Made by a program: the position numbers and the translations under genes. The notes under the pieces were generated by a model that searched no databases, had not been told where the DNA came from, and saw only the letters and a program-made list of their open reading frames with translations. From Armatimonadota bacterium (GTDB taxonomy: Bacteria; Armatimonadota; HRBIN16): a DNA stretch of 64,000 nucleotides. Location: assembly GCA_963677485.1 (NCBI GenBank), contig OY781964.1, positions 3,360,001 through 3,424,000 of the forward strand, written 5' to 3'. Below, one piece after another: positions 1,872 through 50,219 of this stretch (within the stretch, counting starts at the first letter, position 1; each line of letters starts with the position of its first letter).

Positions 1872-1880
1872 ACATCGTGT

Positions 1881-5040: not shown

Positions 5041-5074
5041 CGTCCTACTCGTCTTACTCATCCTACCCGTCCTA
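5041..5074 (+). repeat. 9-bp triplet module C (CGTCCTACT-like, about 3.7 copies)
   Basis: cgtcctact cgtcttact catcctacc cgtccta; 29/34 identical to the reverse complement of 16750-16783. Confidence 0.75.
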
Positions 5075-5105
5075 AAAACAATGTGCCTGAAAAAAGGGAA
5101 TAACA

Positions 5106-6002: not shown

Positions 6003-6073
6003 GGGTGGAGTGCTATCTTCGCCCATACATACAAAATTGGGGTCGTGCGTCAAGAATCTGGACATTCGACCGT

Positions 6074-6191
6074 GCCACGCGCTAAAGCACATGGCTATTG
6101 ACTAGCCAAGCCTGCTGAAGCAGGCTCTGATCGTCAGGCCAGACTGCTTCAGCAGTCTTCATAGTCAATAGCCGAGACATTTATGTCGCGG
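6074..6191. repeat. REP/BIME-like composite palindrome
   Basis: Inverted arms ggctattgacta (6093-6104) / tagtcaatagcc (6162-6173) enclose palindromes agcctgctgaagcaggct and agactgcttcagcagtct. Its ends recur at 12376-12390, 12698-12717 and 20727-20745. Confidence 0.8.
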
Positions 6192-6318
6192 AATCGGCGG
6201 AAAATGGCTTATCTGACACACAGGGCTATCGTTCAGGGGCGAAGGCAATGCGGTATCTATACAGAAACGGCACCATGTCGCAGGTTACGGCAGATCATGA
6301 CGACACAAGGAGATATCA

Positions 6319-8532: not shown

Positions 8533-8549
8533 TCGGAACCGCGCCACAC

Positions 8550-8575
8550 TAGGGGCAACCCCCCGTGGTTGCCCT
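8550..8575. repeat. REP-like hairpin between convergent genes
   Basis: taggggcaacc-cccc-gtggttgccct; resembles the GTAG-type REPs elsewhere in the window. Confidence 0.6.
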
Positions 8576-8592
8576 CTTCTGCGGTACGCCCG

Positions 8593-9723: not shown

Positions 9724-9907
9724 TCACCTTCTATGTTCGTGGGAAGGCCGCTTGAGCTCCATCGTGCTGATCACATTATAACCCTCTGCGCCATGTTGCT
9801 GGTCGCAAACCCGCTTGTCGGTGCAGGTTGGGCCGGATGGTACGTGATAGAATAAATCCGATGGCAATAAGCCCCAGATTCCAAACGCGAAAGAGAGTAA
9901 CGCCCAT

Positions 9908-12319
9908 ATGACCCGACAAACGACCCAGCTATTCAAAATCGGCTTGGGGATGGCATGTGGGTTCAATCTTGCTGTCAGCCAGCCTGTGCTGGGGACTCCT
10001 TCCGCCTCGAAAACAGCCTCGTTAAAAACATATACAGTCAAAAACATAGGACTATCTCAAAGAATGACTAACAAAAATGAACCCATAGAGAAAAAAATCA
10101 CCAGCTTGATGGCGAAGATGACGTTGGAAGAGAAGATCGGCCAGCTCACCCAGTACGGCGGTGGTCTGGACAAGAACGGTGAGGAAGACATCCGCAAGGG
10201 CAAGGTGGGCTCTTTGCTTTCGCTGGCTGGGTCGGGTGCGCAAATCCGCGACCGAGTGAACCAGTTACAGCACATCGCGGTGGAGGAATCACGGCAGCAC
10301 ATCCCGTTGATTATCGGGCATGATGTGATCCACGGCTGCCGCACCACCTTCCCGATACCGCTGGGCATCGCCGCGTCGTTTGACCCACAGTGCGCGGAAT
10401 CGGCCAGCCGCATTGCCGCCACGGAGGCACGGGCCTCGGGCATCCACTGGACTTTCGCGCCGATGATCGATATCGCCCGCGACGCCCGTTGGGGGCGCAT
10501 GGCCGAAGGATGCGGCGAGGACCCTTATTTGAACTCCGTGATGGGGGCCGCAATGGTGAAGGGCTTCCAGGGCAAAGACCTGGCAGGTCAGGACGCAGTC
10601 GCGGCTTGCGCCAAACACTTCACCGCGTATGGTGCAGCTGAAGCCGGGCGTGACTACGACACCGCGGACATCTCCAAGAGCACGCTTTACAATGTCTATC
10701 TGTATCCCTATATCGCCGCTGTGGAAGCTGGGATGCAGACCGTCATGCCTTCGTTCAATGAAATTGGCGGCATTCCGATGTCCTGTCACAAAGAGTTGTT
10801 GACTGGCTGGTTGAAGAAGAAGATGGGCTTTGACGGCTACGCGGTGAGCGACGCAAACGCCGTATACGAGCTGGTGAACCACGGCGTGGCCGCTACCCGG
10901 TCCGATGCCGCCAGGTTGGCACTGAGTGCTGGTATGGACATGGATATGGGCTCGAACTGTTTCCGGGACACGCTCGCGGAGCTGGTGAAATCGGGTGATA
11001 TCAAGATGAGCCAGATCAATGAGGCGGTGCGCAGGGTTCTGCGGGTCAAGTTCCGGCTGGGGCTGTTTGACCACCCCTACACTGACCCTACGCTGCTGGC
11101 GAAGGTGGAACGCACCCCGCAGAGCATCGCGGAAGCCCGCCGCATAGCGCAGAAGTCGCTGGTGTTGCTGAAAAACCAGGATGGACTGCTGCCGCTGGCC
11201 AAAGACACGAAGTTCATCGCGGTGATCGGTGATCTAGCGGGTGATGCCGGTTCCATGCTGGGCACATGGGCAGCTTTGGGCCGAAGCTCCGATGCCGTGA
11301 GCATACTGGACGGTGTCAAGAAGGCCGTCTCGGTCGACACGGTAGTGACCTACACCCAGGGATGCTCACTGCCTGGCCGGTATTTCGATGCTCCCAGAAA
11401 CGCTACCGCAGACAACACCGATGGCATTGCGAAGGCGGTAGAAGCCGCGCAAAAGGCTGATGTTGCCATCGTTGTGCTGGGCGAACACGCCGGCATGAAC
11501 GGCGAGGCCTCCAGCCGCAGCGAGATCGAACTGCCTGGCTTGCAGCAGCAGTTGGTTGAGGCGGTGTGTGCGGTGGGGAAACCTGTGGTTGTGGTTCTGG
11601 TGAACGGCAGGGCGTTGGCGATTCCCTGGATTGCGGAGCATGTTCCCGCCGTCCTGGACTCCTGGCACGCCGGTGACGAGGCGGGATCTGCTGTGGCTGA
11701 TGTGTTGTTTGGTGACTACAACCCGGCTGGGCGTCTGCCAGTGACCTTCCCCAAATCGACCGGCTTCTGCCCCATGTATTACAACCGGAAGAACGCTGGT
11801 CGGCCAGTGGGATCGCACCCGGTGTTTTCCGTGGGTTACATGGACACCGAGTATGCTCCTGTCTACCCGTATGGGTATGGACTGAGCTACACCAGCTTTG
11901 AGTATGGGAAGCTGAGTGTCGACCCGAAGACGGCTGACCTGAGTGCGGATATCCACGTGGCCGTTGATGTGAAGAACACAGGCTCTCGGGCCGGTGAAGA
12001 GGTAGTGCAACTCTACCTGCAGGACGTGGTCTCGCTGCCCACCCGTCCAGTGAAGGAGCTGAAGCGGTTTGAGCGTATCATGCTTCAGCCCGGCCAAACG
12101 AAGCGGGTGAAGTTCACGCTCAGCTCACGCGACATCGCCTACTTCGACGACTACGGCGATGCGGTCATCCAGCCTGGTCTGTTCAAGGTGTGGGTTGGCG
12201 GAGACTCCGTCAGCGGACTGCAAGGCGAGTTCACGCTGGCAAACGGTGCGGGGAATGCGAAAACGGAAACCGAGGATGGTAAACACAACACCGGCTATGT
12301 GGGTGGCGTGGAGAAGTAG
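9908..12319 (+). CDS. bglX: beta-glucosidase, GH3 (BglX-like)
   Basis: MTLEEKIGQL, DVIHG, RDARWGR, CAKHF and nucleophile VSD motifs; C-terminal Fn3-like domain (GEEVVQLY..RPVKELKRF); probable signal peptide. Confidence 0.93.
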   Translation: MTRQTTQLFKIGLGMACGFNLAVSQPVLGTPSASKTASLKTYTVKNIGLSQRMTNKNEPIEKKITSLMAKMTLEEKIGQLTQYGGGLDKNGEEDIRKGKVGSLLSLAGSGAQIRDRVNQLQHIAVEESRQHIPLIIGHDVIHGCRTTFPIPLGIAASFDPQCAESASRIAATEARASGIHWTFAPMIDIARDARWGRMAEGCGEDPYLNSVMGAAMVKGFQGKDLAGQDAVAACAKHFTAYGAAEAGRDYDTADISKSTLYNVYLYPYIAAVEAGMQTVMPSFNEIGGIPMSCHKELLTGWLKKKMGFDGYAVSDANAVYELVNHGVAATRSDAARLALSAGMDMDMGSNCFRDTLAELVKSGDIKMSQINEAVRRVLRVKFRLGLFDHPYTDPTLLAKVERTPQSIAEARRIAQKSLVLLKNQDGLLPLAKDTKFIAVIGDLAGDAGSMLGTWAALGRSSDAVSILDGVKKAVSVDTVVTYTQGCSLPGRYFDAPRNATADNTDGIAKAVEAAQKADVAIVVLGEHAGMNGEASSRSEIELPGLQQQLVEAVCAVGKPVVVVLVNGRALAIPWIAEHVPAVLDSWHAGDEAGSAVADVLFGDYNPAGRLPVTFPKSTGFCPMYYNRKNAGRPVGSHPVFSVGYMDTEYAPVYPYGYGLSYTSFEYGKLSVDPKTADLSADIHVAVDVKNTGSRAGEEVVQLYLQDVVSLPTRPVKELKRFERIMLQPGQTKRVKFTLSSRDIAYFDDYGDAVIQPGLFKVWVGGDSVSGLQGEFTLANGAGNAKTETEDGKHNTGYVGGVEK

Positions 12320-12390
12320 GGACAGCCCAGTTGATTACCTCAAAATGCGAAATGGGGGATGCATAATCGACCATACCACGCGCTAAAGCA

Positions 12391-12763
12391 CAGTCTATTA
12401 CCCACAAATAGGTAGCACACGATGGTTATAATCCGGACACCCACGGAGTGGGTATGATTCCTTATAGCCAGGGGTGAGCGAAGCGATACCCCTGGTTGAC
12501 GGTGGAGAGTTCCTACCCCGAAGTGGGTCGAACCGTATCAGTGAAGGCTAAAGTTCGAGAGGCCTGATCCGACCCACGTTCGTGGGTAGATATATCGGGC
12601 CCTCTTCCACGGGTTACGCTTCGCTTACCCGTGGCTATAATGAATCTTAACCACTACGTGGGTGGCCGGACTATGCGTAGCCAGTAGGTCACCTATTCCG
12701 AGACATTTATGTCGCGGCACATAGTCGATACGATCCCAATCTGGATTTGTGGGTAATAGACTG
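12391..12763. mobile_element. 373-bp non-autonomous element with perfect 19-bp terminal inverted repeats, containing a long REP-type palindrome
   Basis: cagtctattacccacaaat (12391-12409) / atttgtgggtaatagactg (12745-12763); inner imperfect palindrome 12428-12674; no ORF. Confidence 0.7.
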
Positions 12764-12788
12764 AAATTATGTCGCGGTATCGGTGCCT

Positions 12789-12835
12789 GGTCGTAGGGGC
12801 ACCCCTACGACCGTATCGGTTACAACGCAGGCTGC
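12789..12835. repeat. GTAG REP palindrome plus anchor motif
   Basis: ggtcgtaggggcacccctacgacc followed by gtatcggttacaacgcaggctgc, the same arrangement as 63170-63203. Confidence 0.7.
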
Positions 12836-12840
12836 ATGGG

Positions 12841-13524
12841 CTACTTACTTTTTAGCTTCGCGCCTTTGTGCTCATCCAGCACGATCTTCTTGCTGGGTGC
12901 GTTAAGCGTAGATAGCCAGGGATCCATCGCTTTCAATATAGCGACCACGCCGCTGCGCTCCATATGTGGAGTCTTCGGCCCGCCGCTGAACACGGTGGCA
13001 CCCATCGTGACCAGCAGGGAAGCGGCTGTTTCCCAGCTCTTCTCAATCTTGGTGCTGTCGGCCTTCACGCCTTGCGCGTTTATCACGATCTCTTGCTTGT
13101 CGGTGTCAATCACCAGCATGTCCACCGTGGCGTAGGCTTTGGTCTTGGGTCCCAGAGCGACCCACTTAGAGGTGATATCCCACTTCAGTTTGGCAGCCAT
13201 CACATATTTCGCATTAAGTTTTCGTCCGACCATCAGCATCTCTGCCGGTGTGGGTAGGGTGTCATATATCGCTTTACCCGTTTCGGATGTGTATACCGAC
13301 TTAGCGTTGGCTGGTGACATCGCCTCTATGCCCGCCTTTTCGAGGTCGGCGTTGATGGCGGCCATCACTTTGCCTTTAGCTGTGTCGTTATCGCAGGTGT
13401 CATTCTTCTCAAGGAAGATGACGGGCATGATGGCGCACTTAGGAAGTGATGGTTCCTTTGACCAGGCTGACGGGCTGATGGCGGCCAGTATCAGGCCGGC
13501 CGCGAGAATTTTGCTTACGTTCAT
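12841..13524 (-). CDS. exported hypothetical protein (CsgG/TolB-N-like alpha/beta fold)
   Basis: Signal peptide; 'AIMP' strand and 'VGRKLNAKYVM' motif typical of this fold. Confidence 0.55.
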   Translation of the reverse strand: MNVSKILAAGLILAAISPSAWSKEPSLPKCAIMPVIFLEKNDTCDNDTAKGKVMAAINADLEKAGIEAMSPANAKSVYTSETGKAIYDTLPTPAEMLMVGRKLNAKYVMAAKLKWDITSKWVALGPKTKAYATVDMLVIDTDKQEIVINAQGVKADSTKIEKSWETAASLLVTMGATVFSGGPKTPHMERSGVVAILKAMDPWLSTLNAPSKKIVLDEHKGAKLKSK

Positions 13525-13693
13525 GAGATGCTCCTATACCAATTGATATTGCGTCTATACACATTATACGACTTTGATGAGCGACGTTTTGTAACCCCAT
13601 ATGTCAATGGGAACCCACACTCTGTACAATAATCTCAGTAGAAGTAATAATCCTGATGGCCTGCTTACCATCGAGCATATTGAGGTGTCTGTC

Positions 13694-15358
13694 ATGAAAC
13701 CTGTCTCATTTTCGCATATTAAGATTTCTGGCGATATATTAAGCCGCGCGCTGTGCAGTTTTGACCGGATGGAGCGTGAGGAATATCAACCCCCTCAAGT
13801 GTTCCATACCGACCCTGACGGCCTCAGCTATGAGTGGCCCGCTGACTGGGAGGGCCGTACCATCCTGGCACTGGTACTGTTGACTCAGGCAACCGGACGC
13901 TCACCTGTCTATCTAGATGCAATCATGTCCGAGCTGCCCAAATACTTCAACAAAGCCGGATACATGGGGAAGGTGCTGGAGGACGGCATCATCGATGAGC
14001 AGCAGCTTTCGGGTAACTCCTGGCTGCTAAGAGCCTTGTGTGAGCTCTACCTCTGGCGAAAAGAACCATCGGTCTTGCTGACGATAGAGGGGATGGTACG
14101 CGGCCTCTATCTGCCTGCCCGAAGCGGATACACCACATACCCCACCAAGCCTGAGCAGCGCAAATATGATGGGGAGGCGATCGGTAGTCTGGCGGCTGAT
14201 GTTGAGGGCAACTGGATATCCTCCTCGGACATCGGCTGTGCCTTCATCGCACTGGATGGCGTGACACAGGCCTATGGCATTCTGCGTTGGCCGGAGCTGA
14301 AAGAGCTGATCGATGTGATGGTCGCGAAGTATCTTGAGGTAGACTTCATGGGTATCTCAGCGCAGACCCATGCCACGCTGAGCGGTCTGCGTGGGGTGAT
14401 GCGTATGGCCGAATATACCCAGAACGAGGAGTATCTGGCTCAAGCGGTGCGAATATACAAACTGTATATGGACTACGGCGTGACCGAGAACTACGAGAAC
14501 TACAACTGGTTCGGTCGGCCTCATTGGACGGAGCCGTGCGCGGTGGTCGATTCCTATATACTGGCCATCTGGTTGTGGCAGGCCACGGGCGAGCCCGAAT
14601 ATCTGGCGGATGCGCACCGTATATACTACAGCGGATTGGGTTACGGCCAGAGGCCTAACGGCGGGTTTGGCACCAATACCTGCGCAGGGGCCGACACCCA
14701 AATTCTTGCGCCGAAGGAGGCCACCTACGAGGCCTTCTGGTGCTGCACCATGCGCGGTGGTGAGGGGATGAGTAAAGCGACCGAGTATACGCTCTTCCAG
14801 GACGAGCACAGCCTGTGGGTCACCATGCTAAACAGCATCCAGGCGGATGTTGACTTCTCTGACGGCACTATGAAGCTGGAGATAGAGACCGACTACCCCT
14901 CAGAATCTCACTGGCGGATGCGAGTGCTATCAAACAACACCTCCAACAGCCATACCCTGAAAGTCTACATGCCATACTGGGTGCTGACACCGAAGGTTAA
15001 GCTGGATGGTGAGTTCATATCAACACCAGTCGATCGAGGGTTTGTGTCGGTCGTAATCCCTGCCGGAAGCTGCCTGGCAGTGGAGATCACATGGGAGAAC
15101 TATCTGCGTGAGGAATCGCCGCGGAACACCCTTCATGACAGCAACTTGCGCAGCCTGTGGCACGGTCCGTTAATGCTGGGGGTGCAGGGCGTGCAGGGTC
15201 CGATGGGGTTGCCGGCATCCACTAAGCTTCAATACGAGGGGAATGGGCATTATCGATGGGCTGGTGTCGATGTACCGCTCAAGCCCGTCCGCGACCTGAT
15301 CTCAATGGAAAACACCAAGGCGATTCATGACAGTCGGCTGGTGTTGTTTAAGGCATAA
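13694..15358 (+). CDS. GH127 family beta-L-arabinofuranosidase-like protein
   Basis: WTEPCA and FWCC Zn/Cys motifs, C-terminal ETDYP and GPLML; ATG at 13694 follows RBS GAGGTG. Confidence 0.8.
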   Translation: MKPVSFSHIKISGDILSRALCSFDRMEREEYQPPQVFHTDPDGLSYEWPADWEGRTILALVLLTQATGRSPVYLDAIMSELPKYFNKAGYMGKVLEDGIIDEQQLSGNSWLLRALCELYLWRKEPSVLLTIEGMVRGLYLPARSGYTTYPTKPEQRKYDGEAIGSLAADVEGNWISSSDIGCAFIALDGVTQAYGILRWPELKELIDVMVAKYLEVDFMGISAQTHATLSGLRGVMRMAEYTQNEEYLAQAVRIYKLYMDYGVTENYENYNWFGRPHWTEPCAVVDSYILAIWLWQATGEPEYLADAHRIYYSGLGYGQRPNGGFGTNTCAGADTQILAPKEATYEAFWCCTMRGGEGMSKATEYTLFQDEHSLWVTMLNSIQADVDFSDGTMKLEIETDYPSESHWRMRVLSNNTSNSHTLKVYMPYWVLTPKVKLDGEFISTPVDRGFVSVVIPAGSCLAVEITWENYLREESPRNTLHDSNLRSLWHGPLMLGVQGVQGPMGLPASTKLQYEGNGHYRWAGVDVPLKPVRDLISMENTKAIHDSRLVLFKA

Positions 15359-15598
15359 CCCTTGGTTAAGCTGCGTCGAGGCCGCTGACAGTGATGTTTG
15401 CGGCCTTAATATCCCAATCATTTCAAAAACACCCTTAACAAACTACTAATTCCATGCTATGATTATAATACTGGCCCCGATGCTACCTGTAAATATTACT
15501 GTAACCAAGTCTGTCGCTGATGTATCTAACAATATATCGAGCTCATTATATCGAAGTAATAACCCTCGCAATTGAAGCGATGATAAGGAGGAGACGAA

Positions 15599-16621
15599 AT
15601 GGCAAACAAAGCCAAAGATCCCCGAGCCGCGGAGACATCGTCCTTAGATCAAGATGCGCAAAATGTCAGTCTGGATGTAACGAATGGTGATGATAACGAC
15701 GACGATTTGGCTGCAGTTGCCGATTTAGGCGAAGATATTGACATCGAAAACCTGGCGACGACGACCGATAAAGATTTGGATGAAATCGCTCGCGAAACCC
15801 ATGGAAAAGACGAAGAGCTCTCCATGTGGATGCATCAAGCCCGGCGCAGCAAGCTGCTTAACTTTGAAGAGGAAGTGGAGCTATCTAAGCGTGTGGAAGC
15901 CGGTGACGAAGATGCCAAGACACGCTTAATTGAAAGCAATCTGCGTTTAGTGGTCTCCATCGCACGCCGTTACGCTTCACGGGGCATCACCCTGCCTGAC
16001 CTAATACAAGAGGGTAACCTTGGACTTATCCGCGCCGTTGAGAAATTCGACTGGAAACGCGGTTTCCGTTTCAGCACCTACGCCACCTGGTGGATTCGCC
16101 GTGCGATTGCACGCGCCATCATCAACCAGGGGCGGACCATCCGAATCCCTGTTTATGTGGCTGAAATCATCCAAAAAGTGGTCAAAACCAGCAACCAGTT
16201 GCGCCAGGACTTGAACCGCGACCCCACCACCGAAGAGGTGGCCACAGCCATGGAGATGGCCCCAGAGCGCGTCCATGAGGTGATGAGGGTCAGCACGGAA
16301 CCCGTCTCACTGGAAACCCCGGTGGGCGAGAAGGATAACTCCAGCTTGGCGGACTTCATGGAAGACGACACCGTCATGCTTCCCACCGACATCGTGAACA
16401 CCATGATCCAGCGGGATCAGATCAACGCTATGCTGGTCAAACTGGCCAAGCGAGAACAGCAGGTGGTTCGGTTGAGGTTCGGGCTCGAAGACGGGCAGTC
16501 CCACACTTTGGAAGAGGTGGGGGTCATCCTTGGCGTCACACGGGAGCGCGTGCGTCAGGTGGAGCTTCGGGCACTGAAGAAACTGCGGCTGATCGGCGCC
16601 ACCCAGGGCCGGTTTGGGTAG
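15599..16621 (+). CDS. RNA polymerase sigma-70 family factor (RpoD/SigA-like, probably non-primary)
   Basis: [40 protein letters not shown] and region 4.2 [18 protein letters not shown]; strong RBS AAGGAGG. Confidence 0.93.
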
Positions 16622-16635
16622 GCCGGTGAATGGAT

Positions 16636-16811
16636 GGGGCACGAAAACAGTGCCCCTACAAACGCCCCACACATACCTAATCTGTGTAATCTGCGTAATC
16701 TGTGGATGATCCTCTCCCCTTCGCGCCCTCGCGCGCGATAAACCTGGTATACGACCGGTATGATGAGTATGACGAGGAGGACGGATTTTCTCCTGTTCTC
16801 CTGCTCTCCTT
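16636..16811. repeat. mosaic of five short repeat modules
   Basis: REP half (16636-16659), module B (16675-16707), module A (16716-16738), module C (16750-16783) and module D (ttctcctg-like x3, 16788-16811). Confidence 0.75.
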
Positions 16812-16893
16812 AACTCCGATCTCCTCCCCCCACGCAGGATTTCAACACCCCCATACCGAAACTATATCCATAATCACAACTTGAGGTGGCTAC

Positions 16894-19800
16894 ATGAGGT
16901 CTCTCATCGCTGCGTTGACGGGGGTCATAGCAATGTCTACCATAGCACAGGCTGAAATCCAGCCGATTTTCCAGAAGGACACCGGACTTTGGATCGGGAT
17001 ATCCCAGGGCTCCAAAACCATCAAGGCCACGGGTGCGGTGCGGCCCGATGTGCGCATCAACACCAGCATGGGATGGTCGCTGGATGGCAAGGGCTCTCAC
17101 AATGCGAACATCACCCACACAGGCAACACATGGGTGGTGACCCGCGAGGAGGGCGACTGGCAGATATCCAGCAGCCTCACCGTCGACGCGGATGAGATAA
17201 GCCGATATGCCACGATCACATACAAGGGCACCAAGCCGCTGGATTTGTGGGGTGTGTCGCTCTACACTCCGGAGCTTTCGCTCGCTAATGATGCCAAGCA
17301 GTATGCGCTGATCCCCGGCGAATACCCGGTGCAGCCGATGATGCAAAACAGTTGGCGCCCAGGTCAGGACCGCATGGAGATCGGCTGGACGCGCGCGGAA
17401 TACAATATCGCATTCCTCCACTCCCCGAAAGCCAAGCTGTCATTGATTTGCGGCTACAAATTCATCGAAGATCAGGCCCGCGTGGGCGTGCATGAGGGCG
17501 ACAAAGCCGTCAGCCTGTTTCACCAGTTCGATACCGCGAAGCACATGAAGACCGGTGACAGTGTCACCATCGGAGAGCAGCGTATCCGGTTGGTCTCTGG
17601 CTCCGAGGATGTGATCATGAACGCCACCATGAGCCTGGTGAACAGCCTGGACCATGGTCCGGCGGCCAACCCACCCTCCTGGCTGTTTGGCGGCACAGTA
17701 TACGAGCTGCACCCCTGGGGACCGCTTGAGATATGGATGAGCGGCGACAACGGTCAGCGATACGACCGTCTGCAACGCCAGATGCCGTATTACAAATCGC
17801 TGGGCGTGAATATTCTGTGGCATCTGCCCACCCAAACCACTCCGCCATGGGTGTATACCACCATGGGTCAGGGACTGGTGCATGAAGCCAACGGCACGAA
17901 GCAGCAGCTTAAGGACATGATCGCTGCGGGCCACAAGATCGGCATCAAGTCGATCGCGGACCTGGTGGTCTACGGTATGCATCCCGACGCACCTGATGCG
18001 AAAACACTCCCCGACGAGGTATGGTGCCGCAACCCAAAAGGTGACATAGACCTGGTTTGGAGCGGAAGCATCAAACCGGCCGATGCGAGTTCTATCCCGT
18101 GGCAGCAATACATCAAGAAGGCCTCACACAACTGGGCGGCTGAGTATGGTTTCGACGGTGCCCGGCTTGATGTGGGCGGCTGGGGGCAGATTCACAACTG
18201 GAACAACCCCGACCGCGCCAATGCCGCCATGGCGAAAGGTGGGATCGAGCTGAACAAGGCGGTGCGTGACGGCTTCCGCGAGGTAATTCCCGATGCCATG
18301 ATCCTGCCCGAGATCGGCAAGCCGATCGCTTTCAAACAAAGCGACCTGCAGTTTGATTACCCTTGGTATCTGGTGATGCGTGACCTGCTGACTACCTCGG
18401 ATATTCCTACCTGGATCACCAACGCCAAGCTCTGGCTGGACTGGCAGCGCGCCACCAACCCCACTCTGGCGATGCACGGATGGGGCCGTTTTACGGACAA
18501 CCACGACACCGTAGCACCTGACTGCTTCTTTGGTGCAGGAATCAACCAGGCGATGCTGGCCATCTGCAGTCTTATGGAAGGTACGCCTATTCTGTACCAG
18601 GAGCAGGAGACCGGCTTCAGCGAGGAGCTGGCACTTTGGCTAGCCTTGCGTCAGAAGTGGGACTGCTTCTCCCACGGCAGCGCTCAGTATACCAGCGTGA
18701 AGAGCTCAGACCCCCGCGTGTTCAGTTTCCTGCGGGTTGGGCCCACATCAGCCGCTGTGGTGGCGGTGAACCTGAGCAACGAAACCATCAAGACGCGCAT
18801 CACCATCCCTGGTGATATGCTGAGCAAGTATCCCTTCTCCGCATCAGCTTTACCAGGCTGCAGCGTGAAGGTGGTCAAGCCTGGGACGGCGGCTATCACC
18901 GTGCCAGCCTATCGGCCAGCCGTGGTTTTGTTGACGAAACAAGCGGTCGTCCTTCCGGCCATCGCGGTGGTTCCACCAAGACCGGTCGATGCCCTGCAGA
19001 ACGGATATAACTCCGAAACGGGTGAGCTGGTCGTGGCGAATGCCACACACTGGACGATGCAGACGCCAGATGGTGATCTACGCGAGAAATTTTGGGATTG
19101 GGGTATGGATCTCAGCAAAACCAACGACCCCATGAAGAGCCTGCCTGTGCTCAAGCGCATGTGGTCACCTCTTGAGACCGGCATACTAGATGGCAGTCAT
19201 CGGGCCGTGATTGGTCTGCAGACAGCCGACAACAAGCTGATCTCCGCTGCGTTTGATCCCTCCAAGGCCACCGAGGTGCGGATTGAAGATGAGCGGCTGG
19301 ACGGTAAGCAGGTGAAGCTCATCATCAAACCCGCCAGTGCGATGCTGCCTCTGACCTCGCTGGCACCGACACCACACCCTGAGATGAACGTGAGTGCCAC
19401 TCATCTCAGAATGGCGATTGGCAAGAGCAGTGTGAAGGCAGTGCGGCGACAGGGCGGCATCCCGATGAACATCACGATCGCCGGCCAACCGATCAATACT
19501 CAGGCATGCATGGCATATACCGACTTCGGCTTCTACAAAAAGGGCGAATTGGTCTCCATCAACGGTGAGACCAACCCGCGCTTGTTCACCATGGAAGCCG
19601 ATGGAAAGTCGATCGCCAGGTTCACCGGGAAGATGCACAGCCAAAGCTGGAACGGCGTGCAGACCTGCGGGTTGGCTGGTCCAGTGCTGGAGTATGAGCT
19701 GGTATACGAACTGCGGCCGAACGGCGAGCTGGCCATCACCTTCAGTGTCATCGCTACGCAAGACGTCGCTGAGGGATCAGCCTTTGCAGGTTTAACCATC

Positions 19801-20061
19801 CCTCTGCATGATGCAACCCTGGTGCAGCAAGGATCTGACAAAATCGGTCAGGGACGGAACGCGTTGCTCAAAGCCCCCGGCAGCATCAAGCTGCACGGTG
19901 GGAAAGCGCCGTTTGAGGTGGCTTGGAGCAAGGGCAACGGAACGGTGTTTACCATTGGACAGGGACAGCAAGCCGCCAACCTGTACATCTGTGCGGTAGA
20001 CGGTCCGCTTCCGGCCATGAAGAAGGGTGATAAGCTTTCACAACAGGCTGTCATCCGATAG
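16894..20061 (+). CDS. secreted multidomain alpha-amylase family (GH13-like) protein
   Basis: Signal peptide; IADLVV, FDGARLDV, ILPE and FTDNHD catalytic regions, GTPILYQEQE; long N- and C-terminal beta domains. Confidence 0.82.
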   Translation: MRSLIAALTGVIAMSTIAQAEIQPIFQKDTGLWIGISQGSKTIKATGAVRPDVRINTSMGWSLDGKGSHNANITHTGNTWVVTREEGDWQISSSLTVDADEISRYATITYKGTKPLDLWGVSLYTPELSLANDAKQYALIPGEYPVQPMMQNSWRPGQDRMEIGWTRAEYNIAFLHSPKAKLSLICGYKFIEDQARVGVHEGDKAVSLFHQFDTAKHMKTGDSVTIGEQRIRLVSGSEDVIMNATMSLVNSLDHGPAANPPSWLFGGTVYELHPWGPLEIWMSGDNGQRYDRLQRQMPYYKSLGVNILWHLPTQTTPPWVYTTMGQGLVHEANGTKQQLKDMIAAGHKIGIKSIADLVVYGMHPDAPDAKTLPDEVWCRNPKGDIDLVWSGSIKPADASSIPWQQYIKKASHNWAAEYGFDGARLDVGGWGQIHNWNNPDRANAAMAKGGIELNKAVRDGFREVIPDAMILPEIGKPIAFKQSDLQFDYPWYLVMRDLLTTSDIPTWITNAKLWLDWQRATNPTLAMHGWGRFTDNHDTVAPDCFFGAGINQAMLAICSLMEGTPILYQEQETGFSEELALWLALRQKWDCFSHGSAQYTSVKSSDPRVFSFLRVGPTSAAVVAVNLSNETIKTRITIPGDMLSKYPFSASALPGCSVKVVKPGTAAITVPAYRPAVVLLTKQAVVLPAIAVVPPRPVDALQNGYNSETGELVVANATHWTMQTPDGDLREKFWDWGMDLSKTNDPMKSLPVLKRMWSPLETGILDGSHRAVIGLQTADNKLISAAFDPSKATEVRIEDERLDGKQVKLIIKPASAMLPLTSLAPTPHPEMNVSATHLRMAIGKSSVKAVRRQGGIPMNITIAGQPINTQACMAYTDFGFYKKGELVSINGETNPRLFTMEADGKSIARFTGKMHSQSWNGVQTCGLAGPVLEYELVYELRPNGELAITFSVIATQDVAEGSAFAGLTIPLHDATLVQQGSDKIGQGRNALLKAPGSIKLHGGKAPFEVAWSKGNGTVFTIGQGQQAANLYICAVDGPLPAMKKGDKLSQQAVIR

Positions 20062-20089
20062 CACACTATCATCCGATAGCATAGAACCT

Positions 20090-20124
20090 GCGGGGATGTG
20101 GCGTTGCCACATCCCCGCTTTTTT
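20090..20124 (+). terminator. rho-independent terminator
   Basis: Perfect 13-bp stem gcggggatgtggc/gccacatccccgc followed by T6, 28 nt after the GH13 stop. Confidence 0.9.
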
Positions 20125-20189
20125 ATGGGATTGTTGACGGGGTGTTGTCTGAACCACGGATTACGCGGATGACACGGATGGGGAGGATG

Positions 20190-20317
20190 GGGACGGGGAA
20201 GATAGGGACGGGGAAGATAGGGACGGGGAAGATAGGGACGGGGAAGATAGGGACGGGGAAGATAGGGACGGGGAAGATAGGGACGGGGAAGATAGGGACG
20301 GGGAAGATAGGGACGGG
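20190..20317 (+). repeat. 15-bp tandem repeat (GGGACGGGGAAGATA) x8.5
   Basis: Eight perfect copies plus a partial copy, read directly. Confidence 0.97.
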
Positions 20318-20331
20318 CCGCCATGCGTCGC

Positions 20332-20398
20332 AGCCATTGTAGGGGCATGGCGGGCCGTGCCCAAGAGCCATTGTAGGGGCAGGCCCCCGTGCCTGCCC
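20332..20398 (+). repeat. two tandem GTAG-type REP hairpins
   Basis: agccattgtaggggca at 20332 and 20366, each followed by a gggca...tgccc stem. Confidence 0.75.
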
Positions 20399-20476
20399 CC
20401 AGCCAGTAACCGCATACGACCCCCGTCCGGGGTAGGTTTATGGCTGCCTTCCAGGGGTTGCGCACCGCTTGGCTGC

Positions 20477-20651
20477 AACTCGATTGGCCATGTCCGGGGC
20501 GGTCTGTCATTACGCCTGCGGAAGCCACTGTCTATAGACCGCGCCGGTCTGGTTCCTGACACAAATCGTTCAGGGCTATCCGCCAGACCGGCGCGGTCTT
20601 GAGCCTTCTGCATCCGCTAGCCTACGCACAGACCGCCCCGGACATAGGCAA
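20477..20651 (-). mobile_element. 175-bp MITE-like element, copy 1, with 11-bp flanking direct repeat
   Basis: IR tgtccggggcggtctgt / acagaccgccccggaca; homologous to 26069-26243 and 43283-43457; flanked by cgcttggctgc at 20466-20476 and 20652-20662. Confidence 0.85.
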
Positions 20652-20765
20652 CGCTTGGCTGCAATAGAGGCGAACGGTCAATTCGCATATCTCTCTGTCG
20701 CCTCAGTGTGACGCGTAAGTTACAGCCGTGGCATTTATGCCGCGGGGGACGGTCAGGACAGGGTT

Positions 20766-23750
20766 CTAGTCACCTTTTGCGCCGAAACTCTGGTCAATCA
20801 CCACGTAGTCAAACAGGTTCACGCTGCCGTCGCCATTAAGGTCAGCCATTGAGTCATTGCTGCCGAAGTGGGTATCCAGCTCCACCAGGTCGAACAAGTT
20901 AATTTGCCCATCGCCATCGGCATCACCGTTGACCAGCGACACATTCAGACTGGTGTCAGTTGCGATGTTCGTGGTGTTCAATGACAGGAAGTGGGGGCTG
21001 CTGATCCGTATATCGTAGGGCGGCTGCAGATAGCTTGAAAGCGTGAACCGACCGTCCTGTTGAGGGAATAGGCTGATGGTCTGGCTCACTGCGGGGTCGA
21101 TGTTGCTATTGATGGCGGCTGTGATCCGCTGTTCGGTCGTATTGCCCGTGAAGCTGTTCAACTGAACCTGACCGCTGATACCATGTACTCCACGGATGCC
21201 GGAAATCCGTTTGCCATCTGTCGCTACGGACAGAAAGCCACTATTCGGTGCTGGCACGTCACTAAGTCCAGCGGCACCACTGTCCCATACCAGCACAGAC
21301 CCGTCACGCTTTACGCCGATCGATGTGTTTTCTTTCGCTGCTATCGCGATGAAATCCTGGTTGGGAGCAGGCACGCTGCACTGGCCCAGGGTGTTATATC
21401 CCCAGCATACTACAGAACCATTGTTCTTAAGTCCCACACTGTGCGATAAGCCTGCGGCGACATCGGTGTAGTCCTGGTTCGGCAAGGGCACCTTGGTTGC
21501 GAGATTGGCAGAATAGCCGCCACATCCCACTGAACCATCGCGGGTGAGTGCGACAACATGGTAAAGGCCAGCAGCCACCTTCACATAATCCGGGTTGTCA
21601 GAAGGCACCACACACTGGCCGTAGTAGTTCTGACCCCATCCAATGATGGAGCCGTCACGTTTTAGACCGAATGTGTCGTAATCACCCGCCACAACGGCCA
21701 CGAAGTCTGAATTCGGGGCCGGTACGTTGCACTGGCCCTCACTGTTTCTACCCCAGCAAACAATAGAGCCATCCGTTTTTAAGACGGCGGCATGACGGTC
21801 ACCAGCAGACACCGCGATGACATCGTGGCTTACGTCAGGTGTACCGCTTTGGTCGGTTATGTATCCCCATGTCATGACCGATCCATCCGACTTGAGGCCT
21901 AATGCAAAATCCGAACTCGCAGCGATGGCAGTAAAGGCGTTGTTGGGAACAGGATCCACAATGACCTCCATCCTTCTACCCCATTGGACGACGGTGCCGT
22001 TGCTCTTCAGACCTAAAGTATAACAATTACCTGCAGCGACTGACACAAAACCGCTGTTGGGGGAAGGCACATCCAATTGTCCTGCCCTGTTATCTCCCCA
22101 GCCCACCAAGCTGCCATCTTGTTTCAGGGTGAAGGCATGTATATTTCCTGCGGAGACGGCAGTGATATTGCTGTTCACGGCAGGCCCGTTGCACTGTCCA
22201 TACTGGTTGTCGCCCCAGCAGACAACAGAACCATCGCTCTTCAAACCGACAGTGTATTGAGAGTTTGAGTCGATCGCGGTGAAGTTTTGATTCGGTGTGG
22301 GTATATCGATCTGTCCGTAATAGTTGCGCCCCCAAGCCACTAGTGTCCCATTGAGTCGCAATCCAATAGTAAAATCTTCACCGGCTCCCACACTCATAAA
22401 GTCATGCTCGGGTGGACGCGTGTAGTTCATCGGATAGGCGTTTACACCTTCAGTTTTGGTCCACCTGACCACTGTACTGTCTCGTTTGACTCCTACCATC
22501 ACTCCTTCATTTGCTGAGATGGCTACGAAGTCCTGGTTTGGGAAGGGAATGTTGGCCCAGCTCCCTCCCCAGTTATAGAATCCTGGCTTACCCCAGAACG
22601 CCAGCACACCGTCCTTTTTCAATCCGATGCTAAAAGCATCTCCTGCGGCCACGGCTGTGAAGTCTGTATTGGGCTGAGGTATGTCACACTCACCGCTATT
22701 GTTCTGACCCCATCCGACCACGGAACCATCTTCTTTCAACGCAAGGCTGTGTGCAGTTCCGATTGCCAGTGCGCTGATCTGCTTGTTCTCCCCGGGTATA
22801 CCGCTTTGGCCGTACTGATTACGCCCAGTGGAGATCACAGAGCCGTCGTGCTTCAGGAAGAGATTGTGGTATTCCCCGGCGGCGGCAGCTGTGATTCCCT
22901 CATTGGGCAAAGGCAGGCTGCACTCACCATAGATGTTTCGTCCCCAGCTCACCACGGAGCCGTTACGTTTGATCGCCACAGTGTGTTCGGATCCAGCCGT
23001 GACAGAAGTGAAATCCTGGTTGGGTGAAGGTATGTCAGAACACTGGCTATGGTCATCCATACCCCAGCACACAACGGAACCATCACGCTTTAGCCCAACT
23101 GTATGGTAGTTGCCTGCGGATATGGCCACAAAGCCGGTGTTTGGTGAGGGTGTGACATACTGGCCGAATGTGTCGTCTCCCCAGCTGACCACGGACCCAT
23201 CGCGCGTCAGTCCTACAGTATGACATGCACCGGCTGAAATGGCCACAAAGTCCCCATTGGGAGCTGGCACGCTGCACTGACCGTAGTCATTGTTACCCCA
23301 GCACACCACAGACCCATCGCGTTTGAGCCCGACGGTATGTTGGCTGCCTGCAGCCACTGCAATGAAGTCCTGGTTAGGAGCCGGTACACTGCACTGGCCG
23401 TAGTCGTTGTTTCCCCAGCACTGAATAGAGCCATTCAGTTTCAAGCCTGCGGTATACATACCGCCAGCGGATACCGCATCGAACCCGGAATTTGGTGCAG
23501 GTATGTTGCACTGCCCATCGCTGTTGTCACCCCAGCAGCCTATGGTGCCATCAACCCTGACCCCTACCGAATGCCTGTCTCCTGCATCAACCGAGGTGTA
23601 TCCTGACAACGAGCCGGGCAGTGTGCGCTGGCTTCCCCAGACCTCAACCGTCCCCCCTTGAGTGTATCCAGCGGCGCTGCATATCAGCAGAATGAGCGCT
23701 ACCAGCCAATGATGACTTTTAGGAATCACAACGTCTCGATTTACTTTCAT
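20766..23750 (-). CDS. secreted RCC1/BLIP-II repeat protein with C-terminal dockerin-like (EF-hand pair) domain
   Basis: Signal peptide; about 21 repeats of V.CWG.N..GQC.VP.PN..F.A..AG..H..GLK.DG; C-terminal GDADGDGQINLFD...ADLNGDGSVNLFD. Confidence 0.9.
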   Translation of the reverse strand: MKVNRDVVIPKSHHWLVALILLICSAAGYTQGGTVEVWGSQRTLPGSLSGYTSVDAGDRHSVGVRVDGTIGCWGDNSDGQCNIPAPNSGFDAVSAGGMYTAGLKLNGSIQCWGNNDYGQCSVPAPNQDFIAVAAGSQHTVGLKRDGSVVCWGNNDYGQCSVPAPNGDFVAISAGACHTVGLTRDGSVVSWGDDTFGQYVTPSPNTGFVAISAGNYHTVGLKRDGSVVCWGMDDHSQCSDIPSPNQDFTSVTAGSEHTVAIKRNGSVVSWGRNIYGECSLPLPNEGITAAAAGEYHNLFLKHDGSVISTGRNQYGQSGIPGENKQISALAIGTAHSLALKEDGSVVGWGQNNSGECDIPQPNTDFTAVAAGDAFSIGLKKDGVLAFWGKPGFYNWGGSWANIPFPNQDFVAISANEGVMVGVKRDSTVVRWTKTEGVNAYPMNYTRPPEHDFMSVGAGEDFTIGLRLNGTLVAWGRNYYGQIDIPTPNQNFTAIDSNSQYTVGLKSDGSVVCWGDNQYGQCNGPAVNSNITAVSAGNIHAFTLKQDGSLVGWGDNRAGQLDVPSPNSGFVSVAAGNCYTLGLKSNGTVVQWGRRMEVIVDPVPNNAFTAIAASSDFALGLKSDGSVMTWGYITDQSGTPDVSHDVIAVSAGDRHAAVLKTDGSIVCWGRNSEGQCNVPAPNSDFVAVVAGDYDTFGLKRDGSIIGWGQNYYGQCVVPSDNPDYVKVAAGLYHVVALTRDGSVGCGGYSANLATKVPLPNQDYTDVAAGLSHSVGLKNNGSVVCWGYNTLGQCSVPAPNQDFIAIAAKENTSIGVKRDGSVLVWDSGAAGLSDVPAPNSGFLSVATDGKRISGIRGVHGISGQVQLNSFTGNTTEQRITAAINSNIDPAVSQTISLFPQQDGRFTLSSYLQPPYDIRISSPHFLSLNTTNIATDTSLNVSLVNGDADGDGQINLFDLVELDTHFGSNDSMADLNGDGSVNLFDYVVIDQSFGAKGD

Positions 23751-26068: not shown

Positions 26069-26243
26069 TTGCCTAAGTCCGGGGCGGTCTGTGCGCAGGA
26101 TAGCGGCTGCAGAAGGTTCAAGACCGCGCCGGTCTGGCGGTTAGCCACGAAAGATATGTGTCGGGAACAAGACCGGCGCGGTCCATAGACAGTGGCCCCC
26201 GCTGGTTTACTGACAGACCGCCCCGGACATAGCCAACCGAGTT
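26069..26243 (+). mobile_element. 175-bp MITE-like element, copy 2
   Basis: Colinear homolog of copies 1 and 3 with the same terminal and internal inverted repeats. Confidence 0.85.
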
Positions 26244-30673: not shown

Positions 30674-30794
30674 CTCACGCGAAGACGCGAAGACGCGAAG
30701 GGGTGATGACCGGCGCAGGGAAGGCTGTCCATATTGATCCACAGATTACGCAGATTACACAGATTAGGTCATGACCGGCGCAGGGGAGGCCGTC
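30674..30794 (+). repeat. triplet modules A and B separated by a 24-bp direct repeat
   Basis: (cgcgaaga)x3 at 30674-30703; module B at 30737-30769; atgaccggcgcaggg(a/g)aggc(t/c)gtc at 30706-30729 and 30771-30794. Confidence 0.8.
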
Positions 30795-50145: not shown

Positions 50146-50219
50146 CTCACGCGAAGCCGCGAAGACGCGACGGTAATGACCACGCGGTTTGTCCGTTAGG
50201 GAAATTCGCGAATCGCCCT
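50146..50219 (+). repeat. triplet module A plus degenerate REP
   Basis: ctcacgcgaagccgcgaagacgcgacggtaatgacc matches 30674-30711; followed by agggaaattcgcgaatcgccct. Confidence 0.7.

What the first reader, a model, noticed from the sequence alone, without database searches (positions are those of the whole stretch)
16636..16811. Intergenic spacer built from reusable triplet-repeat modules that recur across the window
Seen: the 270-bp spacer after the sigma gene packs different modules of about 25-35 bp, each a roughly 3x tandem of an 8- or 9-mer. Module B (16675-16707) is a 33/33 exact reverse-complement match to 30737-30769 and is degenerate at 20154-20179. Module A (16716-16738) recurs at 30674-30703 and 50146-50170. 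Module C (16750-16783) matches 5041-5074 at 29/34. Module D is ttctcctg-like x3. They are non-palindromic, occur in both orientations and in different combinations. Inference: a family of tiny, independently mobile, iteron-like cassettes that stack at shared sites, distinct from REPs, MITEs and CRISPR. I recall similar triplets beside GxxExxY or four-helix-bundle genes in other genomes but cannot verify this; no such gene is in the window.
Basis: partly seen in the sequence, partly recalled or inferred. Interest (0 to 1): 0.8.

Follow-up and report, generated by a model that had tools for sequence, protein, structure and literature searches.

The report
Stacked single arms of word-array repeats
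The spacer after the sigma-factor gene is a pile of about 33-base repeat modules, each made of three copies of a short word, which belong to a genome-wide and cross-phylum repeat class that elsewhere forms the inverted arms around small nuclease genes of unknown function.

Summary
The 272-bp spacer holds one GTAG-type REP hairpin and four non-palindromic modules. Each module is a 3-5-base cap, about three tandem 8-10-base units and a GG end.

They belong to about 670 such modules in this 5.2-Mb genome, which is 10-15 times a Markov expectation; 619 of 767 arrays are intergenic.

The same word grammar (CRCRRAG or CRCRRAT) forms inverted arms around this genome's own GxxExxY (PDDEXK_3) gene. An AGGAG-type word does the same around its four-helix-bundle (23S-rRNA-IVP) gene.

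The exact 24-mer of module A occurs in at least 119 stretches from many phyla and in 18 viral stretches. There it often pairs in a fixed left-then-right polarity and sometimes encloses PDDEXK_3 genes.

What is unusual here is that about 89% of arms are single and stacked in the same orientation. The orthologous spacer of a congener has module B only.

Best reading: these are arms of selfish hairpin-armed cassettes, recognised by a protein. How single arms spread is unsolved.

This scan has noted the class before on other DNA (884 notes). I found no paper describing it; cyanobacterial STRR repeats are the closest published kind.

The parts
16636..16659 (-). GTAG-tagged REP-like hairpin. On the minus strand it reads GTAG, then a GGGGCAC stem, a 7-base loop and a GTGCCCC stem.
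   Evidence: Read directly. The class is described in the abstract of PMC3733652. Similar GTAGGGGC...GCCCC hairpins lie at 20336-20400.
16675..16707 (-). Module B, a single arm. On the minus strand: cap ATC, then CACAGATTA, CGCAGATTA, CACAGATTA, then GGT.
   Evidence: TRF 16678-16704, 3.0 copies. It matches 30737-30769 at 33 of 33. The genome-wide profile shows the cap ATCCA and the GG end. It is retained, diverged, in the orthologous G001 spacer.
16716..16738 (-). Module A, a degenerate single arm with two words (CGCGAGG, CGCGAAG on the minus strand) and a GGGG end.
   Evidence: Read and compared with 30674-30703. It is missing from the G001 ortholog.
16750..16783 (-). Module C, a single arm of about four 9-base units. 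The left-arm form CGTCCTACT-like lies on the minus strand.
   Evidence: TRF 16758-16776. It matches 5041-5074 at 29 of 34 as reverse complement (hand count). It is missing from the G001 ortholog.
16788..16810 (-). Module D, TTCTCCTG x2.9 on the plus strand (CAGGAGAA on the minus strand). Its word type is the one that forms the arms around the genome's four-helix-bundle gene.
   Evidence: TRF. AGGAGAC x4.7 and CTCCTGA x7.7 flank the TIGR02436 gene at G000 2741126-2741428. It is missing from the G001 ortholog.
30674..30703 (+). Module A, full copy: cap CTC, ACGCGAAG x3, then GGGG.
   Evidence: The exact 24-mer occurs in at least 119 stretches of other genomes and in 18 viral stretches.
30737..30769 (+). 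Module B, full copy, the exact reverse complement of 16675-16707.
50146..50170 (+). Module A copy (ACGCGAAG, CCGCGAAG, ACGCGA).
5041..5074 (+). Module C in left-arm form, CGTCCTACT x3.8.
   Evidence: It is present but diverged in G001.
20147..20181 (+). B/E-type module with the cap GTCTGAAC, then CACGGATTA, CGCGGATGA, CACGGATGG.
   Evidence: The block that holds it is missing from the G001 ortholog spacer.

Best explanation
The four modules are single arms (half-sites) of a widespread class of selfish repeat elements.

A complete element has two arms in inverted orientation. Each arm is an outer cap, then about three tandem 7-base words separated by 1-3 free bases, then GG. The two arms bracket either a short loop or one small gene: a GxxExxY/PDDEXK_3 nuclease-fold protein or a four-helix-bundle 23S-rRNA-IVP protein.

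The words, rather than base pairing between the arms, are what is conserved. I therefore infer that they are recognition sites for a multimeric protein, most likely the cassette's own nuclease, which acts on the arms in trans on the many gene-less copies.

In this lineage the class has expanded to hundreds of copies, mostly as single arms. These stack head to tail in intergenic DNA, beside REP hairpins, and are gained and lost faster than the flanking genes diverge.

Shown: the anatomy, the copy number, the gene association, the polarity, the turnover and the cross-phylum identity.

Inferred: protein recognition of the words, mobilisation in trans, and a single-strand or replication-linked step (from the link to GC skew).
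For: Abundance and location:
- Period 8, 9 and 10 arrays with at least 2.5 copies number 251, 342 and 132, against 28, 22 and 12 in an order-3 Markov genome.
- 619 of 767 merged arrays lie outside ORF cores.
- Conservation profiles drop to zero within 5 bases outside the cap and 3 bases after the GG end. Two exact variants of the strict 23-mer core of module A have 33 and 32 copies.
- Variation inside units is almost only A/G at fixed positions. Identity within a module is close to identity between modules (0.82 against 0.77 for B).

Gene association:
- ACGCAAAG x4 and CTTTGCGT x4 bracket the PDDEXK_3 gene at 4809839. AGGAGAC and CTCCTGA arrays bracket the 23S_rRNA_IVP gene at 2741126.
- Of 41 GxxExxY loci, 32 have CRCRR-type word arrays within 350 bp. 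Left sides are purine-form in 27 and pyrimidine-form in 7; right sides are pyrimidine-form in 26 and purine-form in 4.
- Of 9 loci from other phyla where ACGCGAAG x3 has a partner 200-1400 bp away, 4 enclose PDDEXK_3.
- 4 of 6 relatives with 10 or more CRCRRAG x3 arrays carry the gene, against 2 of 25 with fewer.

Polarity:
- In G000, same-family neighbours closer than 1 kb are left-then-right 50 times and the reverse 6 times.
- Across 137 loci of other genomes and viral contigs, the partner lies on the proper side in 67 and on the wrong side in 12.

Turnover:
- The G001 ortholog of this spacer has B only.
- Of 68 collinear spacers, 33 have arrays in neither genome, 13 in both, 12 in G001 only and 10 in G000 only.
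- CRGATKA x3 counts are 41 in G000, 33 in G001, 2 in G023 and 0 in the other 28 relatives.

Spread and strand:
- The exact 24-mer occurs in at least 119 stretches from many phyla and in 18 viral stretches.
- Orientation follows local GC skew. Where |skew| is 0.02 or more: 75 plus and 34 minus in positive skew, 19 plus and 31 minus in negative skew, Fisher 4e-4.
- Orientation does not follow transcription (A: 48 same, 45 opposite; B: 33, 38).
Against: - Only 15 of 135 strict A arrays in G000 and 3 of 21 in the G001 sample have a partner arm. Here the hairpin form is the exception, and decay of hairpins does not simply yield precisely bounded single arms.
- Mirrored nested stacks are rare (1 case).
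- G000 has only 2 GxxExxY genes and 1 four-helix-bundle gene for about 670 modules, and no gene with B, C, E or F arms.
- G022 has 65 arrays and no GxxExxY gene.
- The link between protein tree and word type is weak: 18 changes against a shuffle mean of 21.1, with 12 of 500 shuffles as low. It is also confounded by descent.
- No binding, cleavage or movement has been observed.
- No clean single-module insertion with a target duplication was found.
- Family counts rest on TRF and a crude ORF caller and include some chance arrays. The rows at window 6377-6398 and 15174-15198 look like chance.
Confidence: 0.55

Rival explanations
1. Immobile debris. The modules are relics of decayed hairpin elements, now spread only by local tandem duplication and recombination of intergenic DNA. 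Single arms are not units of movement.
For: - Paired arms with strict polarity exist and dominate elsewhere. By my reading of the first 100 places listed, about two thirds of the G020 arrays are plus-then-minus pairs. Across other genomes, 67 of 137 loci have a partner on the proper side.
- Composite units are tandemly duplicated, for example about 145 bp x5 at G000 3494890-3495640 and 40 bp x4 at 3613738.
- Module C at 5041 is conserved but diverged in G001, so arms can persist passively.
Against: - About 89% of arms are single yet sharply bounded at both ends.
- Two exact variants of the strict 23-mer core of module A have 33 and 32 copies at unrelated sites.
- Linkers between stacked modules vary in length and sequence.
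- Repeated precise loss of loop plus partner arm at hundreds of sites is not a known decay route.
Confidence: 0.2
2. BIME-like partners of REP hairpins, mobilised by the genome's Y1 (IS200/RAYT-type) transposases through single-stranded DNA at the replication fork.
For: - The modules sit in a mosaic with GTAG-type and other palindromic repeats.
- One of three Y1_Tnp genes (4121913) lies inside A arms and B-type arms; TRF did not call its right-hand B-type arm, I read it from the sequence.
- Orientation follows GC skew, as expected for elements that use the lagging-strand template. That expectation for IS200/IS605 rests on the abstract of PMC6006769 seen in the listing.
Against: - The other 2 of 3 Y1 genes have their own hairpins and no word arrays.
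- The word arrays are not palindromic and carry no GTAG or CGTC tag.
- The cross-phylum association is with PDDEXK_3 genes.
Confidence: 0.1
3. Host-useful, strand-oriented protein-binding sites, such as chromosome-organising or replication-polar signals, kept by selection rather than by selfish spread.
For: - The modules are intergenic and their orientation is linked to GC skew.
- Density falls from 91 to 5 islands per 300-kb distance bin with distance from the cumulative-skew minimum.
- Three phased words look like sites for an oligomer.
Against: - No CRCRRAG x3 array was found in 17 of 31 relatives.
- Turnover between congeners is rapid.
- Identical words occur in unrelated phyla and in viral contigs.
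- The skew link is only moderate (odds ratio 3.6) and vanishes where skew is weak.
Confidence: 0.08
4. RNA-level elements: terminators, stabilisers, RNase III substrates or small RNAs.
For: - Paired arms would fold as long RNA stems, as in the ORF-bearing 23S rRNA intervening sequences that carry the same protein family (PMC4990558, abstract seen in the listing).
- STRR hairpins have been proposed to affect transcript stability (passage of PMC2670836).
Against: - There is no orientation bias to transcription.
- The modules of this spacer have no partner arm.
- There is no Rfam match at 16000-21000.
- There is no terminator-like site on the gene strand in the spacer.
Confidence: 0.05

Closest known systems
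STRR (short tandemly repeated repetitive) sequences of filamentous cyanobacteria
   Same: Short tandem units in intergenic DNA, present in many copies, able to form hairpins, and of unknown function (passage of PMC2670836). A 1997 title says they also sit inside the RNase P RNA gene (seen only in the reference list of PMC2858038).
   Different: STRR units are usually 7 bp and are described for cyanobacteria. Here the units are 8-10 bp with about three copies, a defined cap and a GG end, mostly as single arms, in another phylum. I found no paper linking STRR to GxxExxY or 23S_rRNA_IVP genes. The original STRR papers are not held.
REP / BIME / REPIN elements with RAYT transposases
   Same: High-copy intergenic repeats. 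The autonomous gene is flanked by inverted copies, with far more gene-less copies. Inverted doublets are the likely mobile form and singlets are common. They form mosaic intergenic clusters (abstracts of PMC3116915 and PMC3337134 in the listing; abstract of PMC3733652).
   Different: A REP unit is itself a palindrome with a GTAG or CGTC tag, and its enzyme is a Y1 HUH transposase. Here a unit is a non-palindromic array of direct words, and the associated genes are PDDEXK_3 and 23S_rRNA_IVP. Only the hairpin at 16636-16659 is REP-like.
ORF-bearing intervening sequences of 23S rRNA (for example the Coxiella burnetii helix-45 IVS encoding S23p)
   Same: A small selfish element whose stem brackets an ORF of the 23S_rRNA_IVP family (abstract of PMC4990558 in the listing). 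The G000 gene at 2741090-2741464 is a member of that family (PF05635, 2.6e-36) and is bracketed by inverted arrays.
   Different: The modules here lie in intergenic DNA, not in rRNA. Most have no ORF and no partner arm. Whether IVS stems are built of tandem words was not checked.
Hairpin-armed GxxExxY cassettes noted earlier by this scan (AI notes, unpublished)
   Same: Inverted arrays of about 7-base words around a GxxExxY gene, with many gene-less copies in many phyla (notes e1-5128797, e1-5096326 and e1-1507546). I re-derived this here.
   Different: In this genome about 89% of arms are single and stacked. Synteny breakpoints are not enriched at modules (11 of 43 breakpoints against 25 of 68 collinear junctions), unlike the reshuffling suggested in e1-5096326.
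Plasmid and phage iterons
   Same: Tandem direct repeats that look like phased protein-binding sites.
   Different: Iterons are about 17-22 bp, lie at replication origins next to a rep gene, and are not dispersed in hundreds of copies (from my own knowledge). No origin context is present here.

Membership tests
REP / REPIN-RAYT | The unit is a 20-40 bp imperfect palindrome that folds on its own. | tested here: not met
   Modules B, A, C and D are direct tandem words with no internal inverted repeat. Only 16636-16659 is palindromic.
REP / REPIN-RAYT | An unpaired GTAG or CGTC tag at one end. | tested here: not met
   The caps are TCTCA, ATCCA and TTAAC or TGAAC. A GTAG tag is present only on the hairpin at 16636-16659. 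The criterion comes from the abstract of PMC3733652.
REP / REPIN-RAYT | A Y1 (RAYT) transposase gene flanked by the same repeats. | tested here: inconclusive
   1 of 3 Y1_Tnp genes lies inside A arms and B-type arms, but has its own inner hairpins; TRF did not call the right-hand B-type arm, I read it from the sequence. The other 2 have no word arrays.
REP / REPIN-RAYT | Most copies occur as inverted doublets. | tested here: not met
   118 of 674 modules are in proper pairs. 15 of 135 strict A arrays have a partner.
STRR | Short tandemly repeated units, dispersed in many intergenic copies. | tested here: met
   767 arrays of period 7-11, of which 619 are intergenic, and 10-15 times the Markov expectation.
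STRR | A heptamer unit, in heterocystous or filamentous cyanobacteria. | tested here: not met
   Units are mostly 8, 9 or 10 bp. The genome is Armatimonadota according to earlier notes, which I did not check.
Hairpin-armed GxxExxY / four-helix-bundle cassettes (informal class) | Inverted arrays of tandem words bracket a PDDEXK_3 or 23S_rRNA_IVP gene. | tested here: met
   In G000, 2 of 3 such genes have both arms and the third has arrays on one side only. In relatives, 18 of 41 loci have arrays on both sides and 14 on one side. In other phyla, 4 of 9 loci with long gaps enclose the gene.
Hairpin-armed GxxExxY / four-helix-bundle cassettes (informal class) | The window's modules use the same word grammar, cap and polarity as the gene-bearing arms. 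| tested here: met
   The A word CGCGAAG is identical to the arms of PDDEXK_3 cassettes in L030, L088, L091 and L095. The D word matches the arms of the four-helix-bundle gene. B and E words (CRCRRAT) match L190 and L215. For C, no gene-bearing copy was seen.
MITE | Terminal inverted repeats plus a target-site duplication, and a related autonomous transposon. | tested here: inconclusive
   Paired arms act as terminal inverted repeats. No target duplication could be read from the G000 and G001 alignments. The spacer's modules have no second end.
CRISPR array | Repeats of 25-40 bp separated by unique spacers of similar size, with cas genes. | tested here: not met
   The words abut with 1-3 free bases and there are about three copies only. 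I did not search for cas genes.
Iterons of a replication origin | Direct repeats beside a rep or dnaA gene and an AT-rich unwinding region. | tested here: not met
   The flanks are a sigma-70 gene and a glycoside-hydrolase gene. dnaA is at 1.20 Mb. There are hundreds of dispersed copies.

The most novel reading that the evidence does not exclude
A single capped arm of about 33 bp (cap, three words, GG) is itself a unit of insertion. On this reading it is the smallest mobile DNA known in bacteria. It would be placed next to earlier arms with a strand preference tied to replication, by a trans-acting enzyme (the GxxExxY nuclease or an unidentified partner), without needing a second end. Intergenic spacers would then grow as ordered stacks of arms.
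Probability: 0.2. Interest if true: 0.85.

Novelty: new variant of a known kind. Interest (0 to 1): 0.6.

Why it matters
Three long-standing orphans may be parts of one system:
- short tandem intergenic repeats of the STRR type, whose function is still unknown;
- the large PDDEXK_3/GxxExxY family, listed as function unknown with many transfers between divisions (Table 1 of PMC3424549);
- the 23S-rRNA-IVP protein family of ribosomal intervening sequences.

This genome gives a tractable case. It is a closed chromosome with about 670 arms, only three candidate genes, and a closed congener for comparison.

The repeats also matter in practice. Short-read contigs of 4 public runs end exactly at the modules, so such repeats fragment metagenome assemblies and are likely under-counted in draft genomes.

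Tried and rejected
- RNA evidence: no RNA holder was listed for window 15600-18600.
- Laying contigs of 4 DNA runs from 2 studies on 4500-21500 showed no variant of the target spacer. Contigs simply end at 16704 and start at 16678. The joint 16708 to 20585 carries 39 foreign letters and a 21-base side, so I read it as another locus sharing module B.
- Synteny breakpoints between G000 and G001 are not enriched for modules: 11 of 43 breakpoints against 25 of 68 collinear junctions.
- Nested mirrored stacks as the source of co-oriented stacks: only 1 case.
- Genes as cargo between distant arms: at 1-10 kb the reverse polarity is the commoner one (50 against 26).
- Replication slippage as the origin is rejected, because the same 24-mer with the same cap occurs across phyla.
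- Protein tree against word type gave a weak signal, confounded by descent. 9 of 46 fetched loci were dropped by my ORF filter, and 4 rows were pre-selected by their arms.
- Distance from the origin: dnaA is at 1.20 Mb but the cumulative skew minimum is at 2.15 Mb. I therefore re-did the orientation test against local skew and treat the density gradient as descriptive only.
- Promoter, terminator and Rfam scans of the spacer gave nothing.
- Literal repeat strings gave no paper.
- Look-up of earlier findings by sequence gave nothing.

Full report
**Observation**

The window is G000:C1:3360001-3424000 of a closed 5.22-Mb, 54% G+C chromosome. Earlier notes of this scan call it Armatimonadota; I did not check this.

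The spacer at 16622-16893 lies between a sigma-70 gene and a glycoside-hydrolase gene.
- B at 16675-16707: TAATCTGTG x3.0.
- A at 16716-16738: a degenerate two-word copy.
- C at 16750-16783.
- D at 16788-16810: TTCTCCTG x2.9.

B is the exact reverse complement of 30737-30769 (33 of 33). Its 27-mer has 2 hits in the window, against 0 hits in each of 100 shuffles. C matches 5041-5074 at 29 of 34 (my hand count). Full A copies lie at 30674-30703 and 50146-50170.

The first 24 bases of the flagged stretch (16636-16659) are a different thing. They form a hairpin that on the minus strand begins with GTAG, the tag of one REP super-family (abstract of PMC3733652).

**Genome-wide picture**

TRF on the whole genome gives 2172 rows with a sharp excess at periods 8-10. 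With at least 2.5 copies there are 251, 342 and 132 arrays of period 8, 9 and 10, against 28, 22 and 12 in an order-3 Markov genome.

After merging there are 767 arrays of period 7-11, and 579 of the 799 unmerged rows have about three copies. 619 of the 767 lie outside ORF cores by a crude ORF caller.

Units fall into a few families:

| Family | Unit type | Arrays |
|---|---|---|
| A | ACGCGAAG-like | 238 |
| B | CACAGATTA-like | 204 |
| E | CACGAATGGA-like | 100 |
| D | CAGGAG-like | 52 |
| C | AGTAGGACG-like | 45 |
| F | GGACGGATC-like | 35 |
| unassigned | | 93 |

Some assignments are chance. Two of the nine rows in the window look so.

A, B and E share one grammar, C-R-C-R-R-A followed by G or T. 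Their variation is almost only A/G at fixed positions. Units within a module are barely more alike than units of different modules.

Conservation profiles show that a module is a sharply bounded unit: a 4-5-base cap (TCTCA, ATCCA, TTAAC or TGAAC), three words and GG(G), with no conservation beyond. Two exact variants of the strict 23-mer core of module A have 33 and 32 copies.

**Link to genes**

The genome has two TIGR04256 genes and one TIGR02436 gene. By Pfam they are PDDEXK_3 and 23S_rRNA_IVP.
- The gene at 4809839 is bracketed by ACGCAAAG x4 and CTTTGCGT x4.
- The gene at 2741126 is bracketed by AGGAGAC x4.7 and CTCCTGA x7.7.
- The gene at 554460 has CGCGGAG arrays on one side only.

In 251 genomes of the phylum, 93 have a TIGR04256 match. 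Of 41 loci analysed, 32 have CRCRR-type arrays within 350 bp and 18 have them on both sides. The polarity is fixed: the purine form lies on the left in 27 and the pyrimidine form in 7; on the right it is 26 pyrimidine and 4 purine. For this count, 37 of 46 fetched loci passed my ORF filter and 4 rows were pre-selected by their arms.

Among the 31 relatives, 4 of 6 genomes with 10 or more CRCRRAG x3 arrays carry the gene, against 2 of 25 with fewer. G022 is an exception, with 65 arrays and no gene.

**Spread beyond the lineage**

The record titles name Chloroflexota, Alpha-, Delta- and Gammaproteobacteria, Acidobacteriota, Planctomycetota, Verrucomicrobiota, Streptomyces and a Methanoculleus. 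It also occurs in 18 stretches of viral contigs.

The cap (C)TC and the following G or A recur there. Of 137 such loci, 67 have a complementary array downstream within 1400 bp, 57 of them within 200 bp. Only 12 have one upstream. Of 9 loci with gaps of 200-1400 bp, 4 enclose a PDDEXK_3 gene, in Sphingomonas, Blastomonas, an uncultured alphaproteobacterium and a Syntrophobacteraceae genome.

So module A of this window is the same arm that brackets PDDEXK_3 cassettes in other phyla.

**What is special here**

In G000 only 118 of 674 modules are in proper pairs, and only 15 of 135 strict A arrays have even a two-word partner on the proper side, with 0 on the wrong side. In the G001 sample it is 3 of 21. 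In G020, by my reading of the first 100 places listed, about two thirds of the arrays are plus-then-minus pairs.

Neighbouring modules are strongly co-oriented: for gaps under 100 bp, 86 plus-plus and 92 minus-minus against 14 minus-plus. They form stacks of up to nine arms without mirrored partners. Part of this comes from tandem duplication of composite units.

The four modules of the flagged spacer are all in right-arm orientation, and no left arms lie upstream.

**Turnover**

G001 is a closed congener whose flanking genes are 84-88% identical. At this site it has a diverged B only. A, C and D (about 105 bp) are missing, and the REP hairpins differ.

The spacer at 20061-20766 is 625 bp in G000 against 135 bp in G001, while module C at 5041 is shared.

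In a 400-kb sample of G001, the 68 collinear spacers split as follows: 33 with arrays in neither genome, 13 in both, 12 in G001 only and 10 in G000 only. Different modules can occupy the same site.

CRGATKA x3 arrays number 41 in G000 and 33 in G001, 2 in one other relative and 0 in the remaining 28. Contigs of short-read runs end exactly at modules, so draft genomes may under-report them. Two well-assembled relatives (7 and 30 contigs) still have none.

**Strand and position**

Orientation is unrelated to the direction of flanking genes. It does follow local GC skew. Where |skew| is 0.02 or more, islands are 75 plus and 34 minus in positive skew and 19 plus and 31 minus in negative skew (Fisher 4e-4). 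Where skew is weak there is no link.

Density is highest at 1-3 Mb. The origin is not pinned: dnaA is at 1.20 Mb and the skew minimum is at 2.15 Mb.

Synteny between G000 and G001 is heavily broken in this region, but breakpoints are not enriched for modules (11 of 43 against 25 of 68).

**Interpretation**

The words are conserved, while the bases between them and the match between arms are not. This points to recognition by a protein rather than to a structural stem. The fixed polarity, the caps, the gene association, the patchy taxonomic spread and the fast turnover point to selfish elements whose autonomous form is a small-gene cassette. The skew link hints at a single-strand or replication-coupled step.

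I cannot explain how precisely bounded single arms arise.

One of the three Y1 transposase genes lies nested inside A arms and B-type arms (I read its right-hand B-type arm from the sequence, TRF did not call it). This keeps a REP/RAYT-type mobiliser alive as a rival.

**Literature**

- Literal repeat strings found no paper.
- 'GxxExxY' is held in 3 papers, 2 of them listed. I read the one passage of PMC8934634, which is not about repeats; I did not open the other.
- PDDEXK_3 is listed as function unknown, in prokaryotes and viruses, with multiple transfers (Table 1 of PMC3424549).
- STRR repeats are described as usually 7-bp repeats able to form hairpins, of unknown function (passage of PMC2670836).
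- Supplements were not consulted.

This scan has noted the class many times on other DNA: 884 notes mention GxxExxY, two of them on this genome.

Noticed in passing
window 20176-20317: A tandem array of the 15-mer GGACGGGGAAGATAG, 9.5 copies at 97% matches, directly after a B-type module. The whole block is missing from the G001 orthologous spacer.
   Followed up: partly
window 6100-6200, 12410-12802, 20536-20657, 26069-26183, 43283-43398: A high-copy repeat of about 110 bp containing a GCCGAGACATTTATGTCGCGG hairpin. It matches several places in G001 and gives depth spikes of 200-5600 in the laid runs. The same hairpin flanks the Y1 transposase gene at G000 2992049 on both sides, so it is probably a REPIN-type family of that gene.
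   Followed up: partly
window 20336-20400: Two GTAG-tagged REP hairpins (GTAGGGGC...GCCCC). One of them is conserved in G001.
   Followed up: no
G000 1.0-3.0 Mb compared with G001 1.30-1.70 Mb: Synteny between the two congeners is broken at 43 of 111 junctions in the sample, in blocks of a few genes. GC skew is weak in the same region of G000.
   Followed up: partly
G000 2024014-2025165: A hemerythrin-domain gene (PF01814) lies between A-type arms in left-then-right polarity, so arms can bracket ordinary genes too. Among other-phylum loci, one pair encloses a type I restriction S-subunit fragment (L086).
   Followed up: no
G000, nine places (for example 830587, 2670195, 4770288, 5199258): Nine 262-aa reading frames score about 53 bits against the DnaA ATPase region (seven at 52.8, two at 52.5). 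They are probably the helper ATPase of a multi-copy insertion sequence.
   Followed up: no
G000 1203628-1204950: dnaA lies about 0.95 Mb from the cumulative GC-skew minimum (2.15 Mb).
   Followed up: no
window 16678-16704, 5043-5070, 20145-20180: Contigs of four public short-read runs end or start exactly inside these modules. Such repeats fragment assemblies and may be under-counted in draft genomes.
   Followed up: yes
G000 3494890-3495640 and many other spacers: A further recurrent module, CTGGGAACGCCAATC-NCC-GATTGGC (a CCAAT...ATTGG palindrome), and a GACCGGCGCGGT-type palindrome often follow word arrays.
   Followed up: no
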